This document shows positions 13,659-17,958 of a DNA stretch of 64,000 bases, in pieces. The translations under genes and the position numbers were made by a program. The stretch is from Shigella phage SH-2: the sequence record PQ642267. One strand, given 5' to 3'. Each line of letters opens with the position of its first letter. The stretch's first letter is position 1. The notes below the pieces were generated by a model. That model ran no database searches. It was not told the DNA's origin and saw only the letters and a program-made list of their open reading frames with translations.

Positions 13659-14240
13659 CTAACCGAGCTTTTTAGTTAATTCATTCCAATGTTTTCTGCA
13701 CAAAGAAACATAAATTTCATCACCAATACAGATTTGATTACCTTCTTTAACTGGTGTTCCATCTTCCATTAATCGAGCCGTCATAATCGCTTTTTTACCG
13801 CAATGACAAACTGCCTTTAGTTCAATAAGTTTATCTGCAATCGCCAAAAGTTCTTTAGAACCTTCAAATAATTTTCCAGCGAAATCAGTCCTTAGCCCAT
13901 AAGCCATAACAGGAACATTGTATGTATCGACAATTCGGCTTAATTGATGCACCTGTTCAGTTTTTAAAAACTGAGCTTCATCTACAAATACGCAATGAAT
14001 ATCTTTTTGTGCTTCAGCCCATTTATAGAACTCAAAAATATCCATATCATCCGTAATAATATTCGCTTCCTGCTTAATTCCAATGCGAGAAACGACTTCA
14101 CAGACAGAATCGCGAGTATCAATAGCAGGTTTAAGAACTAATACACCCATTCCGCGTTCTTTATAATTATGCGCAGCAGTCAAAAGAGAAGCAGATTTTC
14201 CAGCATTCATTGCTGCATAAGTAAAAATTAAACTCGCCAT
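13659..14240 (-). CDS. tk: thymidine kinase
   Basis: 193 aa; P-loop AAMNAGKS; zinc-ribbon CHCGKK...C..C; T4 Tk-like. Confidence 0.85.
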   Translation of the reverse strand: MASLIFTYAAMNAGKSASLLTAAHNYKERGMGVLVLKPAIDTRDSVCEVVSRIGIKQEANIITDDMDIFEFYKWAEAQKDIHCVFVDEAQFLKTEQVHQLSRIVDTYNVPVMAYGLRTDFAGKLFEGSKELLAIADKLIELKAVCHCGKKAIMTARLMEDGTPVKEGNQICIGDEIYVSLCRKHWNELTKKLG

Positions 14241-14249
14241 ATCACCTTC

Positions 14250-14456
14250 TTAAAGCGTATTCACATAAGCTATTAATTCGTTTTCTTTCTTATCAAACCG
14301 GTCAGCAAATTCTTCTTGCTGTTCGGGAGATAGCGGGCCGTATTCATCATAAAAGGTGTTTGCTTCTGTATGCTCATCTAGAAGTTCATGGATAAGCTCA
14401 AACAATTTATCTTTTTGTTCTTTACTCAGACTCATAACCATGTAACCTTTAAGCAA
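14250..14456 (-). CDS. hypothetical small acidic protein (68 aa)
   Basis: ORF track only. Confidence 0.4.
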   Translation of the reverse strand: MLKGYMVMSLSKEQKDKLFELIHELLDEHTEANTFYDEYGPLSPEQQEEFADRFDKKENELIAYVNTL

Positions 14457-14644
14457 TATTCTTCTACATGTTGTTTACGACCTTTCCTATCAATAAAGGT
14501 ATATTCAACGAATGTTCCAATATAATCTTTATCTACATCATGAGAACTATTAATTGGGCATTTAGTACGGCAAATGCGTTCCCATTGACGAATAATTTCC
14601 GCTTTGTTTTTAGGATCAAACGGATGCGGGTAATGTACTTTCAT
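14432..14644 (-). CDS. hypothetical small protein (70 aa)
   Basis: ORF track only. Confidence 0.4.
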   Translation of the reverse strand: MKVHYPHPFDPKNKAEIIRQWERICRTKCPINSSHDVDKDYIGTFVEYTFIDRKGRKQHVEEYCLKVTWL

Positions 14645-15095
14645 AATCCACCACTATTAAATCAATATCAGGAGTAAACATATCGATTAATTTAGAAACC
14701 TTATCCCAATCACCGCCAGCAATACCACAACCTATGCGTGGAATGTAAATTACTGGTTTAAACAAAAGGGTCTCTGCCTGTAGATTTAATTCTATCATGC
14801 AGTTTACTAAAGCACCATAATCAAGATTAGGACCCGGTTCGTATTGCGTATACAGGTTATAGCATATACCAAATCCCGTAGGACTATGTTTAAAAACAAT
14901 AGACATATCGCCTAATTTATCGCGAGAACCGTACTCGGTAGTAGTTTTATCTATTTCTAAAATTTTGGGATAGGCTCTTGCTAATTGACCCGCTACACCT
15001 GAACCCATAGTATGAAAACAATTGCACCCGTGCGCAATAATATTACCTTGAAGAAATAGGGCGACAATATCGCCCTTGATATATTTTACAATCAT
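14616..15095 (-). CDS. macro-domain protein (Poa1p-like ADP-ribose-processing fold)
   Basis: GDIV...AHGCNCFHTMGSGVAG and PRIGCGIAGG motifs match macro-domain signatures; 159 aa. Confidence 0.6.
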   Translation of the reverse strand: MIVKYIKGDIVALFLQGNIIAHGCNCFHTMGSGVAGQLARAYPKILEIDKTTTEYGSRDKLGDMSIVFKHSPTGFGICYNLYTQYEPGPNLDYGALVNCMIELNLQAETLLFKPVIYIPRIGCGIAGGDWDKVSKLIDMFTPDIDLIVVDYESTLPASV

Positions 15096-15433
15096 CTAGT
15101 ACTCAATCCTCGATTATAAGAATCTACCAAACGGTCAACCATTGAATGACAAGCGGCTTTATCTTTCTCCTCCGCAACTGAACATTCTAAGGTATTCCAC
15201 TTTTTAGCATATCGTTTTAACAATGTATCATTTTTATATCTACTTGATTTATCTCTTTCTCCGTCTTTATATGCATATATTAATTTCTGCGCAAATTCAG
15301 CTTGGCATGCTTTATTTTTCCCGCAATAATCCGCGGCAGTACGATTTACATACTCTCTAATTTCAGTATATGATGTATTTGCTAACGCAGAAAATGAAAT
15401 TAATCCTATACATAAAACCAAAATTTTAGTCAT
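15092..15433 (-). CDS. small secreted/periplasmic protein (113 aa, signal peptide)
   Basis: N-terminal MTKILVLCIGLISFSALA; possibly the vs-position gene but not recognised. Confidence 0.45.
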   Translation of the reverse strand: MTKILVLCIGLISFSALANTSYTEIREYVNRTAADYCGKNKACQAEFAQKLIYAYKDGERDKSSRYKNDTLLKRYAKKWNTLECSVAEEKDKAACHSMVDRLVDSYNRGLSTR

Positions 15434-15971
15434 TTACTATTTCCAAAAGTTTATTATTTTTAAGGTAGTTAGCCTTTTCTAGGACTTCAGAAGCATATTT
15501 AGAACCTGCTTTAACATTCCATCCCGAATTATAAGAGGATATAGCCTTTCTTATATCGCCCTTATGTATATTTAACCAATAAGAAAGTTCAATGTACGCC
15601 CAGGAAGCTGAATTGGACCGTTTATTCAACATTCTTTTTATTTCGGCATCGGTCATATTATAACCAAGTTCCTTAACTCTTGCTCGCATAGTTGGCAAAT
15701 AATTTTGGAACATTCCATAGGCATGATGTTTTGGTTTAGATTTTAAATTAACTCCGGCAGAGCTTTCTTGCCATAAAATAGCAGCCATTATATGACCTAA
15801 TCCGCTCTTATGGATATTTTTGTGTGTTTTATATTTTCCATCCTTAGAAAATTGTTCCCCGAATTGATACGCGTAACGCATGTTATCGAGTTGGACATTA
15901 CTGAAAGTATGCTCGGAGCTATGTGCCATCATAGAAATGGCCAATAGACCAGCGAGTAGTGCTTTTCTCAT
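15426..15971 (-). CDS. periplasmic lytic transglycosylase-like protein (SLT domain, signal peptide)
   Basis: Signal peptide MRKALLAGLLAISMMAHS; catalytic-region motif WQESS...YGMFQ typical of SLT domains. Confidence 0.55.
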   Translation of the reverse strand: MRKALLAGLLAISMMAHSSEHTFSNVQLDNMRYAYQFGEQFSKDGKYKTHKNIHKSGLGHIMAAILWQESSAGVNLKSKPKHHAYGMFQNYLPTMRARVKELGYNMTDAEIKRMLNKRSNSASWAYIELSYWLNIHKGDIRKAISSYNSGWNVKAGSKYASEVLEKANYLKNNKLLEIVND

Positions 15972-15978
15972 GCTTACC

Positions 15979-16440
15979 TCATTGAGTTTTAATTACTGCT
16001 TTAGAAGCCTTTCCTGGTAAACGACGACTGTTAATAATTGCCATCCTGCATTGAAGCGACGGGTCTTTGAACTTCGCATTAGGTTTACAAACTGTAAATC
16101 CAAGCCAAAGATTTCCATCTGTGATTTCTAAACGCCCAGGACGATATTCAACCCCATCAATAAAATCCTCGTCAATGTCAGGACGCGGAGGCATACTCAG
16201 GAATTCATTAACTTCTAAAACATGGTCTTTTATTTTGTGGAATAATTCAAAAACATATGTCTCATCAATCTCCCGTTGAATTGCACGATCAAGAAGATGC
16301 TGAGAATATTTTAGATGAAACGATGAGACCCCTGCTGCTTTTGATGCCTCACGAATCTCATTGTTAATTTGACGAAACTCCGACTCAAAGTGACGACGGA
16401 GCTTATTTCGACGGATAAAAACTTCTGTGTTGATAGTCAT
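15979..16440 (-). CDS. regB: RegB-like sequence-specific endoribonuclease
   Basis: 153 aa starting MTINTEVFIRRNKLRR, recognised as T4 RegB-like; SD GAGGAG; own early promoter. Confidence 0.7.
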   Translation of the reverse strand: MTINTEVFIRRNKLRRHFESEFRQINNEIREASKAAGVSSFHLKYSQHLLDRAIQREIDETYVFELFHKIKDHVLEVNEFLSMPPRPDIDEDFIDGVEYRPGRLEITDGNLWLGFTVCKPNAKFKDPSLQCRMAIINSRRLPGKASKAVIKTQ

Positions 16441-16467
16441 GTTATTCTCCTCTTAACTGATAGAAAA

Positions 16468-16497
16468 ATTATACCACAGTCAAGAGGAAAAGTAAAC
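16468..16497 (-). promoter_or_regulatory. T4-type early promoter (GTTTAC, 18 bp spacer, TATAAT)
   Basis: Minus strand GTTTACTTTTCCTCTTGACTGTGGTATAAT upstream of regB. Confidence 0.55.
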
Positions 16498-16499
16498 AG

Positions 16500-16820
16500 T
16501 TATTCTTTAAATCTAATCAATTTATTCATAGACTTTGTAACTTCTGCACGAACCTCATGTAGGTTTTTAAGCTGTTCAAGACGCTGCTCATAGTAAGCAA
16601 TTTCATCTTCTTCGAGACAGTCCTGCGAATCTTCTTTAAGATAACGTGCATAGTCCTGGAAAGCTTTACGGACTACTTCCTGGAAGTCATCAAGACTTTG
16701 AATTTTCTTAGGAGCAACAGATACACGACGAGGGGCAGTATAATACTCATAACCAAACCCTGCGCTTAATTGAGCCATTAATATTTTTCCTCTGGTTGGA
16801 ACACAGCACGACAAGCCCAC
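16500..16820 (-). CDS. hypothetical protein (106 aa)
   Basis: ORF track only. Confidence 0.4.
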
Positions 16821-17044
16821 ATACTGGCTTCTTTGAGTTTCGTTTTAGCAATAGTTAACTGATCAAGACTTTCAGCATAATTCTTCGCGAATTCACAGTC
16901 TTCACAATTATCTAGTGCTTCCCAGAATTCATCATATAAAGCATCAAAGATAAGTCCTAAACGAACTTCAGCATCTTTGATAGCATTCACTTTACCGATT
17001 TTCTCTTCAGTATGTGGCTTATAACCCTTAATATCTTCAATCAT
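16778..17044 (-). CDS. hypothetical protein (88 aa)
   Basis: ORF track only. Confidence 0.4.
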
Positions 17045-17258
17045 ATTTTACTTCCTCACCAGTACCTAAATCATATTCAACTAAACGAATAGGTTCATGA
17101 ATGCCATATCCCTGAACAGTGATATCGGTTGTCGGATATTTTCCGGTAATATCACCCATTCTAAATGCTTCAATGAATGATTGCTCGCCTGAATTACTAA
17201 ACCACTCGGCGAAAGCATTTAGCACATCTTTAGAACCTTCAATAATTATCTTTGCCAT
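17037..17258 (-). CDS. hypothetical protein (73 aa)
   Basis: ORF track only. Confidence 0.4.
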   Translation of the reverse strand: MAKIIIEGSKDVLNAFAEWFSNSGEQSFIEAFRMGDITGKYPTTDITVQGYGIHEPIRLVEYDLGTGEEVKYD

Positions 17259-17620
17259 TACAGACTCTCGGTAAAGGTACGAGCGATAACGTCGCGCTGC
17301 TGTTCCGGAGTCAGAGAGTTAAAGCGAACTGCATAACCGGATACACGGATGGTCAGCTGCGGATATTTTTCCGGATGCTTAACTGCATCTTCCAGAGTTT
17401 CACGACGCAGAACGTTAACGTTCAGGTGTTGACCACCTTCAATTTTAACTGTAGGTTGTGTTTCAATTTCAATTTCACGGGCATGCAAACCGTAGAAAAT
17501 TTCCGGGTCTACAAAAGAGTCCTCTTTAAAGGTTTTAGAGACAATAATTCGTGCTTGAATACCATCTTCAAAATAAATAGTACCTTTATGCGTGCCTTCA
17601 AGAATTTGATATGCTTTCAT
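17258..17620 (-). CDS. autonomous glycyl-radical cofactor (GrcA/YfiD-like; T4 Y06I-type)
   Basis: C-terminal ...[59 protein letters not shown] with the RVSGYAVRF glycyl-radical motif; ATG at 17618-17620 (track start is TTG). Confidence 0.75.
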
Positions 17621-17628
17621 ATAACCTC

Positions 17629-17958
17629 TCAATTAGAAAATAAATTTATCCAAGATTGCTCTTTAATTAAAAATGGCTCAGAATCATATGCCATTAAACT
17701 TTGGGTGATTAGTCCTTTAAAAGGTCCATCAATAAATTCCATGGTAAAATATGGAATTTTATTCATTAATCTTGCATTAGGAGCAGTACACAAAACTCTG
17801 CATCCTTTGAATACGCCTTTTTGTAATTTGTATTGCTTAGGATAAAATTCGCTCAAGACGTTGTTATTTGCCAAAATTTCAAAATGATTCACCAATTTAT
17901 TTTTAATAGTTTTTGGCGAAAAATAAAGATATTCGAAAAGTTGCGTGTCTGTCATCAT
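17629..17958 (-). CDS. hypothetical protein (~109 aa)
   Basis: ATG at 17956-17958 overlaps upstream stop (ATGA); track start 18009 also ATG. Confidence 0.4.

What the first reader, a model, noticed from the sequence alone, without database searches (positions are those of the whole stretch)
14616..15971. Macro-domain protein adjacent to secreted proteins including an SLT-type transglycosylase
The 159-aa ORF has Poa1p-like macro-domain signatures (AHGCNCFHTMGSGVAG, PRIGCGIAGG), implying ADP-ribose or ADP-ribose-phosphate processing. In a phage that itself ADP-ribosylates host proteins, such an enzyme could reverse or process ADP-ribosyl marks or NAD-derived defence signals. The next two genes encode signal-peptide proteins, one with an SLT catalytic motif (ES...YGMFQ), a likely periplasmic murein-remodelling enzyme separate from endolysin e and the gp5 lysozyme.
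Basis: partly seen in the sequence, partly recalled or inferred. Interest (0 to 1): 0.55.

Follow-up and report, generated by a model that had tools for sequence, protein, structure and literature searches.

The report
T4 tk.4 macrodomain, a known anti-DarT2 gene

Summary
Window 14616-15971 (minus strand) carries three tightly packed genes of a Tequatrovirus: tk.4 (159 aa), vs (113 aa) and vs.1 (181 aa).

**tk.4**
- It is a macrodomain: Pfam Macro at 32 bits (cut-off 22), and an AlphaFold model with pLDDT 93.8.
- The A1pp/macro domain in tk.4 and the SLT domain in vs.1 were reported by 2006.
- A 2025 preprint showed that deleting T4 tk.4 sensitises the phage to DarTG2, and renamed the gene adfM.

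**What I add**
- The active site is Gln-type, like SCO6735 and Bt_1257. An invariant Gln84 sits where DarG, TARG1 and PhiKZ AdfM have the catalytic Lys.
- The window's allele is only 58% identical to T4 AdfM, while the flanking genes are 97-100% identical. dS is 1.4 against about 0.12-0.18 for the neighbours, and the allele is closer to a Dhakavirus allele. This points to cassette exchange.

**vs.1 and vs**
- Both vs.1 and vs have signal-peptide-like N-termini.

**Verdict:** already known, low interest.

The parts
14616..15095 (-). tk.4, an orphan ALC1-like (DarG/TARG1/SCO6735-type) macrodomain of 159 aa. It is the positional orthologue of T4 tk.4 (adfM) but a divergent allele, 58% aa identity.
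   Evidence: Synteny between vs and tk.3 as in T4.
14988..15035 (-). Residues 21-36, AHGCNCFHTMGSGVAG: strand 2 plus the first glycine-rich ADP-ribose-binding loop. It contains invariant His22, Gly23, Asn25 and Cys26. His22 and Asn25 correspond to SCO6735 His24 and Asn27.
   Evidence: Alignments A1/A2. Mapping to SCO6735 numbering.
14844..14846 (-). Codon CAA for Gln84, invariant in 45 diverse homologues. It occupies the position of the catalytic Lys of TARG1 (K84), DarG (K80) and PhiKZ AdfM, and of the essential Gln85 of SCO6735.
   Evidence: PMC9411070.
14712..14741 (-). Residues 119-128, PRIGCGIAGG: the phosphate-binding loop. Gly122 and Gly124 correspond to SCO6735 Gly126 and Gly128. Ala126 sits where TARG1 has Asp125.
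15092..15433 (-). vs, annotated 'valyl-tRNA synthetase modifier' (113 aa). It has a signal-peptide-like N-terminus (residues 1-18, window 15380-15433) and four invariant Cys in the mature part.
   Evidence: phrog_1256; 98% identity to T4 Vs; hydropathy; alignment A4.
15426..15971 (-). vs.1, a secreted SLT-type (GH23, family-1-like) lytic transglycosylase candidate of 181 aa. The signal peptide is residues 1-18 (15918-15971). The putative catalytic Glu69 is at 15765-15767. Motifs: GMFQNY at 86-91, SYNSG at 146-150, Tyr159.
16468..16496 (-). Sigma-70-like promoter match (TTTACT-17-TATAAT with TG) just upstream of regB. It is the candidate early promoter for the packed regB-vs.1-vs-tk.4-tk.3-tk.2-tk run.
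   Evidence: Gene junctions are a 7-nt gap and 8-, 4- and 29-nt overlaps. This is a consensus match only; the total number of matches is not above the shuffle expectation.
14240..15080 (-). Segment that is divergent relative to T4 inside an otherwise 97-100% identical backbone. tk.1 is absent, tk.2 is 54% and tk.4 58% aa identical, and tk.3 is 91%.

Best explanation
Window 14616-15095 is tk.4, the T4-family gene recently named adfM. It encodes a free-standing, cytoplasmic macrodomain of the ALC1-like clade.

**Proposed mechanism**
- The gene is probably made early, from the promoter-like site upstream of regB.
- The protein most likely acts as an orphan 'antitoxin mimic'. It removes the ADP-ribose that the host toxin DarT2 puts on thymidines (TNTC motif) of single-stranded phage DNA, so replication can proceed.
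- The chemistry probably follows the SCO6735 model rather than the DarG/TARG1 model. There is no catalytic Lys or Asp. Instead Gln84, held by Asn25, positions the distal ribose, the two glycine loops hold the diphosphate, and a water molecule starts the cleavage.

**Shown and inferred**
- Shown here: the fold, the clade and the conserved residues.
- Shown by others: T4 delta-tk.4 becomes DarTG2-sensitive. The Gln-type enzyme SCO6735 and the Lys-type PhiKZ AdfM both hydrolyse T-ADPr DNA.
- Inferred: that this 58%-identical allele does the same, and that it acts by hydrolysis.

**The neighbouring genes**
- vs and vs.1 are separate, exported proteins.
- Vs.1 is most likely a periplasmic lytic transglycosylase using Glu69.
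- There is no evidence that either works with Tk.4.
For: **Identity of the locus**
- The window is a Tequatrovirus, 99.5% identical to phage SH-1/Lv5cm over 2.5 kb.
- The gene order regB-vs.1-vs-tk.4-tk.3 is as in T4, Dhakavirus WG01 and Marfavirus.

**Fold and clade**
- Pfam Macro is above its cut-off.
- The PADLOC DarG model hits both this allele (5e-7) and T4 Tk.4 (1e-9).
- The top PDB sequence hits are Bt_1257, Poa1p, SCO6735, DarG and TARG1.

**Active site**
- H22, N25, Q84, G122 and G124 are invariant in 45 homologues of 38-100% identity.
- They map one-to-one onto SCO6735 His24, Asn27, Gln85, Gly126 and Gly128. Mutating each of these reduces or abolishes T-ADPr DNA hydrolysis, although the His24 mutant was misfolded (PMC9411070).

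**Genetics and biochemistry from the literature**
- tk.4 was the single significant hit in a T4 transposon screen on DarTG2. A clean knock-out was sensitised.
- T2 and T4 lacking adfA/adfN remain DarTG2-resistant (PMC11825919).
- PhiKZ macrodomain AdfM removes DarT2 marks in vitro (PMC13309987).

**Selection**
- dN/dS is 0.14-0.26 against the other alleles, so the protein is under purifying selection.
Against: - No assay exists for this allele. It differs from the tested T4 protein at 42% of residues, including the phosphate loop (GCGIAGGD against GAGIGKGN).
- The T4 result is a preprint. It shows genetics, not enzymology, and the authors only say hydrolysis 'seems likely'.
- A Gln at the catalytic position also occurs in the non-catalytic ALC1 macrodomain, so Gln84 alone does not prove activity.
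- Tk.4 lacks SCO6735 Lys34 and Lys89 and has a mobile loop about 6 residues shorter.
Confidence: 0.72

Rival explanations
1. Tk.4 processes a small soluble ADP-ribose derivative. It would act as an ADP-ribose-1''-phosphate phosphatase like yeast Poa1p, or as an O-acetyl-ADP-ribose deacetylase. This is what the RefSeq name 'phosphatase' and the first reader's label imply.
For: - The H-x-C-N-C motif is shared with Poa1p.
- TARG1-class enzymes also deacetylate OAADPr (PMC9411070).
Against: - The 'phosphatase' name comes only from the SMART A1pp domain name (T4 note 'contains A1pp phosphatase motif'; PMC1524935).
- The single-sequence Poa1p match covers mainly residues 3-79.
- The only phenotype known for the T4 orthologue is DarTG2-specific.
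- The two activities are not mutually exclusive.
Confidence: 0.1
2. Tk.4 protects without catalysis. It would bind and inhibit DarT2 directly, or shield the modified DNA, as a stoichiometric antitoxin mimic.
For: - Catalytically dead SCO6735 Q85A, DarG K80A and TARG1 K84A all inhibit DarT in vitro (PMC9411070).
- The T4 study did not test catalytic mutants.
Against: - Active-site residues are invariant across distant homologues from many phage groups. That is not expected for a pure binder of one toxin.
- Tk.4 lacks the C-terminal DarT-binding domain of DarG: 159 aa against a 329-338-position DarG model, with only the N-terminal ~145 positions matched.
- PhiKZ AdfM activity drops with an active-site Asn mutation.
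Confidence: 0.1
3. Tk.4 erases or tunes the phage's own ADP-ribosylation or RNAylation marks, made by Alt, ModA or ModB on host proteins.
For: Only circumstantial. T4-like phages encode ADP-ribosyltransferases (established knowledge; these genes are not in this window), and TARG1/SCO6735-class enzymes can act on protein Glu/Asp-ADPr.
Against: - The T4 transferases modify arginine. ALC1-like macrodomains are not known to cleave that N-glycosidic bond (established knowledge, not tested here).
- tk.4 is dispensable on K-12, with 45 of 46 TA sites hit.
- No such phenotype is reported.
Confidence: 0.04

Closest known systems
T4 Tk.4 / AdfM (anti-DarT factor Macrodomain; NP_049723; bioRxiv 10.1101/2025.11.20.689424)
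   Same: - Same genomic slot between vs and tk.3.
- Same length class (159 against 155 aa).
- Collinear alignment without gaps over 155 residues.
- The same invariant His22, Asn25, Gln84, Gly122, Gly124 and Trp130.
   Different: - Only 58% aa identity, while neighbours are 97-100% identical.
- dS is 1.4 against about 0.12-0.18 for the neighbours.
- The phosphate loop is GCGIAGGD against GAGIGKGN.
- There is a 4-residue C-terminal extension, giving a 29-nt overlap with tk.3.
- The allele has not been tested experimentally.
Streptomyces coelicolor SCO6735 and Bacteroides Bt_1257 (PDB 5E3B, 2FG1/2AFC)
   Same: - Gln instead of Lys at the catalytic position, plus the His, Asn and Gly-x-Gly residues shown to matter in SCO6735.
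- SCO6735 specifically cleaves thymidine-linked ADP-ribose on DNA.
   Different: - The 'mobile loop' is about 6 residues shorter.
- SCO6735 Lys34 and Lys89 are not conserved (Ser32 and Gly88 here).
- Only 25-29% identity.
- Those are cellular housekeeping or repair proteins, not phage genes.
DarG antitoxin macrodomain of DarTG2 (PDB 5M3I, 5M31/5M3E, 7OMU), and the Lys-type PhiKZ gp104 AdfM
   Same: - Same biological opponent, DarT2.
- Conserved Asn (N25, corresponding to PhiKZ N23).
   Different: - The catalytic Lys (DarG K80; the PTK motif in PhiKZ gp104) is Gln here.
- There is no C-terminal DarT-binding domain and no adjacent darT.
- The NCBIfam DarG equivalog scores 27.7 bits against a cut-off of 250.
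Family-1 lytic transglycosylases (SLT domain, GH23: Slt70, MltE, MltC, MltF, EtgA), for Vs.1
   Same: - E-S, G-x-F-Q, (S/A)-Y-N-x-G and Tyr motifs are present, with invariant Glu69.
- Exported via a signal peptide, like the bacterial enzymes.
   Different: - A minimal single-domain protein of about 163 mature residues.
- The family was found only in T4-like phages (77 clusters).
- No PDB sequence hit.
- It is an apparently non-structural protein with an unknown role, distinct from the GH24 lysozymes e and gp5.

Membership tests
Macro domain superfamily (Pfam PF01661) | Profile match above the curated gathering score. | tested here: met
   32 bits against a cut-off of 22; residues 22-136 cover profile positions 2-117 of 118.
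Macro domain superfamily (Pfam PF01661) | Three-layer alpha/beta/alpha macro fold with two glycine-rich loops lining the ADP-ribose cleft. | tested here: met
   [not shown]
ALC1-like macrodomain class (TARG1, DarG, Poa1p, SCO6735) | Closer to members of this class than to MacroD, viral or PARG classes. | tested here: met
   [not shown]
DarG antitoxin (NCBIfam NF048014 equivalog) | Score above the curated equivalog cut-off, with the two-domain architecture (macro plus C-terminal DarT-binding domain). | tested here: not met
   27.7 bits against a cut-off of 250. Only model positions 2-142 of 338 are matched, and the protein is 159 aa (PADLOC).
DarG antitoxin (NCBIfam NF048014 equivalog) | Catalytic lysine (T. 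aquaticus K80, corresponding to TARG1 K84). | tested here: not met
   The position is Gln84, invariant in the family.
DarG antitoxin (NCBIfam NF048014 equivalog) | Encoded next to its cognate darT toxin. | tested here: not met
   The neighbours are vs and tk.3. Pfam and PADLOC give no ADP-ribosyltransferase match for the adjacent genes tested.
SCO6735/Bt_1257 subclass (Gln-type T-ADPr DNA hydrolases) | Gln at the catalytic position, held by a conserved Asn, plus the His and Gly-x-Gly of the phosphate loop. | tested here: met
   Q84, N25, H22, G122 and G124 correspond to SCO6735 Q85, N27, H24, G126 and G128.
SCO6735/Bt_1257 subclass (Gln-type T-ADPr DNA hydrolases) | Extended 'mobile loop' after the Gln strand, and DNA-positioning Lys34/Lys89. 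| tested here: not met
   The loop is about 6 residues shorter (insertion in Bt_1257 relative to the Tk.4 profile). Ser32 and Gly88 are at the Lys positions.
AdfM (T4 tk.4) orthologue group | Positional orthology in the regB-vs.1-vs-tk.4-tk.3 block, with full-length homology. | tested here: met
   phrog_335 E=1.2e-71.
AdfM (T4 tk.4) orthologue group | Protects the phage from DarTG2 and removes DarT2-made ADP-ribose from DNA. | not testable with these tools
   Known only for the T4 allele (genetics) and for the unrelated-clade PhiKZ protein (biochemistry).
Poa1p-type ADP-ribose-1''-phosphate phosphatase | Appr-1''-p phosphatase activity and its catalytic residues (His23 and Ser30 were the residues mutated in PDB 6LFS/6LFT). 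| tested here: inconclusive
   His22 aligns with Poa1p His23 and Thr29 with Ser30 (my mapping from the alignment and the entry names). The Poa1p match is strongest over residues 3-95. Activity is not testable here.
SLT / GH23 family-1 lytic transglycosylase (Vs.1) | Pfam SLT above cut-off, a single catalytic Glu in an E-S motif, plus the G-L/M-x-Q and A/S-Y-N-x-G motifs. | tested here: met
   23.4 bits against 21.3. E69, G86, F88, Q89, Y147, N148, G150 and Y159 are invariant in 37 homologues. The motif definitions are from my own knowledge of the family.
SLT / GH23 family-1 lytic transglycosylase (Vs.1) | Goose-lysozyme/SLT fold. | tested here: met
   [not shown]
SLT / GH23 family-1 lytic transglycosylase (Vs.1) | Forms 1,6-anhydro-MurNAc products (transglycosylase rather than hydrolase). 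| not testable with these tools
   The fold cannot separate a lytic transglycosylase from a g-type lysozyme.

The most novel reading that the evidence does not exclude
tk.4 may be a polymorphic counter-defence cassette. At least three or four deeply diverged alleles circulate in otherwise near-identical T4-like genomes:
- the window type, at >=90% identity in about 312 records;
- the T4 type, at >=90% identity in about 224 records;
- an allele about 84% identical to T4's, in about 159 records;
- a Dhakavirus-like allele, 77% identical to the window's.

These alleles are exchanged between genera. They might differ in which DarT2 variants, or which ADP-ribosylated bases or nucleic acids, they neutralise. 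On that reading, allele identity would help set host range against DarTG-type defences. The Gln-type chemistry would also be a second, independently recruited solution alongside the Lys-type PhiKZ AdfM.
Probability: 0.2. Interest if true: 0.45.

Novelty: already known. Interest (0 to 1): 0.2.

Why it matters
Phage macrodomains that undo DNA ADP-ribosylation are a current topic in phage-defence research, but this gene family, its domain and its role are already published. Two modest points remain useful. First, T4-type AdfM has a Gln-type (SCO6735-like) active site rather than the DarG Lys-type. Second, this phage carries a 58%-identical allele brought in by cassette exchange. Together these make allele-swap and specificity experiments straightforward to design. 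Vs.1, an early periplasmic lytic transglycosylase of unknown role, and Vs, which looks exported, remain functionally open.

Tried and rejected
- **First structure job.** I re-ran it without that row.
- **NCBIfam.** No usable family for Vs or Vs.1. The DarG equivalog is far below its cut-off for Tk.4, so I do not file Tk.4 as DarG.
- **PADLOC.** No hits for Vs or Vs.1.
- **A three-gene functional module.** I considered whether tk.4, vs and vs.1 form one. I rejected this for lack of evidence. One product is cytoplasmic and two are exported. The Tk.4-like macrodomain occurs in about 2,790 phage records across many families, while Vs occurs in about 795 T4-like records. In addition, tk.4 recombines independently of its neighbours.
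- **In-situ positive selection as the cause of the tk.4 divergence.** Rejected: dS is near saturation (1.4), dN/dS is 0.26, and the allele is closer to a Dhakavirus allele.
- **CmdTAC (an mRNA ADP-ribosyltransferase) as a possible target.** T4 is strongly restricted by it, and the paper mentions no phage macrodomain. Nothing supports this idea.
- **Promoter and terminator scan.** Promoter matches were not above the shuffle expectation. Only the site upstream of regB is positionally sensible.
Full report
**1. What is there**

The window is a T4-like phage (Tequatrovirus). Window 14000-16500 is 99.5% identical to Shigella phage SH-1 and Salmonella phage Lv5cm, and 95-99% identical to about 470 other records. 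On the minus strand the genes run regB (15979-16440), vs.1 (15426-15971), vs (15092-15433), tk.4 (14616-15095), tk.3, tk.2 and tk, in the same order as in T4. They are tightly packed: a 7-nt gap, then 8-, 4- and 29-nt overlaps. A sigma-70-like match with an extended -10 lies just upstream of regB (16496-16468). The scan as a whole was not above the shuffle expectation, so this is only a positional hint of one early transcription unit. The plus strand holds only short ORFs of 45-70 aa.

**2.

- Tk.4 residues 21-36 and 119-128.
- Vs.1 E69-S70 and Y85-Q89.

Domain and fold evidence:
- Tk.4 matches Pfam Macro above the gathering score (32 against 22 bits). Vs.1 matches SLT above its score (23.4 against 21.3).
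- A Tk.4 AlphaFold2 model built on 44 homologues is confident (pLDDT 93.8).
- 'Poa1p-like' is therefore acceptable at the level of the ALC1-like clade.
- In 37 Vs.1 homologues, Glu69 and the G-x-F-Q-N-Y, Y-N-x-G and Tyr159 positions are invariant, and every sequence starts with a signal-peptide-like segment.
- Vs also has such a segment.

**3. It is already known**

- Nolan et al. 2006 (PMC1524935) reported the A1pp/macro match of tk.4 orthologues and the SLT match of vs.1, citing earlier PSI-BLAST matches for vs.1.
- Several GenBank records say 'macro domain protein' and 'transglycosylase SLT domain-containing protein'.
- Function is also known. A 2025 preprint (10.1101/2025.11.20.689424) found tk.4 as the single significant hit when a T4 transposon library was grown on a DarTG2-expressing host. 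It showed that a clean deletion sensitises T4 to DarTG2, and it renamed the gene adfM.
- This fits the earlier finding that T2 and T4 lacking adfA/adfN remain DarTG2-resistant (PMC11825919).
- A Cell Reports 2026 paper showed that an unrelated-clade phage macrodomain, PhiKZ gp104 (also called AdfM), removes DarT2-made ADP-ribose from DNA in vitro (PMC13309987).
- In the T4 screen, tk.4, vs and vs.1 are all non-essential on K-12.

**4. What the tools add: the active site**

A profile of the Tk.4 family aligned to PDB sequences, and an alignment with T4 Tk.4, PhiKZ gp104, TARG1, Bt_1257 and SCO6735, agree on the following:
- The invariant Gln84 of Tk.4 occupies the position of the catalytic Lys of TARG1 (K84), DarG (K80, per PMC9411070) and PhiKZ gp104 (its PTK motif).
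- Gln84 coincides with the Gln of Bt_1257 and with Gln85 of SCO6735.
- TARG1 Asp125 corresponds to Ala126.

I checked SCO6735 numbering by counting along the 5E3B chain. It reproduces the published His24, Val25, Asn27, Lys34, Gln85, Gly87, Lys89, Gly126 and Gly128.

In SCO6735, Q85A abolishes hydrolysis of thymidine-linked ADP-ribose on DNA. N27S and G128E strongly reduce it, and H24Y destroys the fold. Tk.4 keeps His22, Asn25, Gln84, Gly122 and Gly124, all invariant in 45 homologues of 38-100% identity. It lacks Lys34 and Lys89 and has a mobile loop about six residues shorter.

T4-type AdfM is therefore a Gln-type enzyme. It is mechanistically nearer to SCO6735 than to DarG, while PhiKZ AdfM is Lys-type. 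Two caveats apply. The non-catalytic ALC1 macrodomain also has Gln at this position. And nobody has yet assayed a T4-type protein.

**5. What the tools add: a divergent allele**

| Gene | aa identity, window vs T4 |
|---|---|
| Tk.4 | 58% |
| RegB | 99% |
| Vs.1 | 99% |
| Vs | 98% |
| Tk | 99% |
| rI.1 | 100% |
| Tk.3 | 91% |
| Tk.2 | 54% |
| tk.1 | absent from the window |

Sources.

- DNA identity to T4 falls to about 50% across most of 14619-14960 and recovers to 100% at 15081.
- Nei-Gojobori estimates give dS 1.44 and dN/dS 0.26 for tk.4, against dS 0.12-0.18 for vs, vs.1 and regB.
- The window allele is closer to the Dhakavirus WG01 allele (77% aa, dS 0.78, same C-terminal tail). Its neighbours, by contrast, are saturated against WG01.
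- This is cassette exchange of an old allele under purifying selection, not rapid in-place evolution.
- In the phage collection, the window type is found at >=90% identity in about 312 records. The T4 type is found at >=90% in about 224, and an 80-90% class in 159.
- Tk.4-like macrodomains occur in about 2,790 phage records of many host genera. Vs occurs only in about 795 T4-like records.

**6. Most likely mechanism**

An early, cytoplasmic, free-standing macrodomain removes DarT2-made ADP-ribose from thymidines of single-stranded phage DNA, using the Gln84/Asn25/glycine-loop site.
- Shown: fold, clade, residue conservation, and positional orthology to a gene with a DarTG2-specific phenotype.
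- Inferred: that this allele has the same target, and that protection is by hydrolysis.

Rivals:
- A small-molecule phosphatase or deacetylase role. The 'phosphatase' annotation rests only on a domain name.
- Non-catalytic inhibition of DarT2. Catalytically dead SCO6735, DarG and TARG1 do inhibit DarT in vitro. However, the invariant active site and the missing DarT-binding domain argue against it.
- Erasing the phage's own Arg-linked marks. There is no support for this.

**7. The neighbouring genes**

- Vs.1 is best read as a periplasmic family-1-type lytic transglycosylase with catalytic Glu69.
- Its family was found only in T4-like phages (77 clusters) and has no assigned role.
- Nothing links Vs.1 or Vs functionally to Tk.4. 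The adjacency is conserved synteny, with tk.4 recombining independently.

**8. Verdict**

The finding is already known, and interest is low. The residual open points are the specificity of the alleles and the Gln-type chemistry.

Noticed in passing
window 15092-15433 (minus), vs: The 'valyl-tRNA synthetase modifier' Vs has a signal-peptide-like N-terminus (MTKILVLCIGLISFSALA|NT). It also has four Cys that are invariant across Tequatro-, Mosig-, Dhaka- and Marfavirus. It therefore looks like an exported, disulfide-bonded protein of about 11 kDa. That is hard to square with binding cytoplasmic ValRS. The HIDEN-SEQ preprint reports that a vs deletion impairs T4 plaques only in minimal medium.
   Followed up: partly
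window 14240-14456 (minus), tk.1/tk.2 region: tk.1 is absent (alignment gap at 14240-14258). The 68-aa ORF at 14250-14456 (TTG start as listed; Pfam DUF7438) is only 54% identical to T4 Tk.2. The whole tk.1-tk.4 stretch is a variable island in a backbone that is 97-100% identical to T4 at the protein level.
   Followed up: partly
window 17037-17258 (minus), vs.5 position: The 73-aa ORF in the vs.5 slot shares only a 17-residue local match with the 58-aa T4 Vs.5. This is either another replaced small gene or a different start or frame.
   Followed up: no
window 17258-17632 (minus), vs.6: This ORF is a GrcA/YfiD-like autonomous glycyl-radical cofactor, with the C-terminus [25 protein letters not shown]. 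It is 98% identical to T4 Vs.6.
   Followed up: no
window 15058-15076 (both strands), inside the 5' end of tk.4: An 8-bp GC-rich hairpin (AGGGCGATATTGTCGCCCT) followed by a T-rich tail scores as terminator-like on both strands. It lies within codons 7-13 of tk.4 and may be chance: 6 sites were found against 2.7 +/- 1.8 expected in the region.
   Followed up: no
L004 1538-2008 (Escherichia phage AV110, Mosigvirus): tk.4 is annotated from an internal Met (126 aa). The reading frame continues upstream through the conserved N-terminus (..IKNYIKGDIVALF..) without an ATG. This is either a non-ATG start missed by the annotators or an N-terminally damaged copy.
   Followed up: partly
window 14616-14644 (minus): tk.4 ends 29 nt inside tk.3 because of a 4-residue C-terminal extension (..ESTLPASV). 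That extension is shared with the Dhakavirus WG01 allele. In T4 the two genes overlap by only 4 nt.
   Followed up: no
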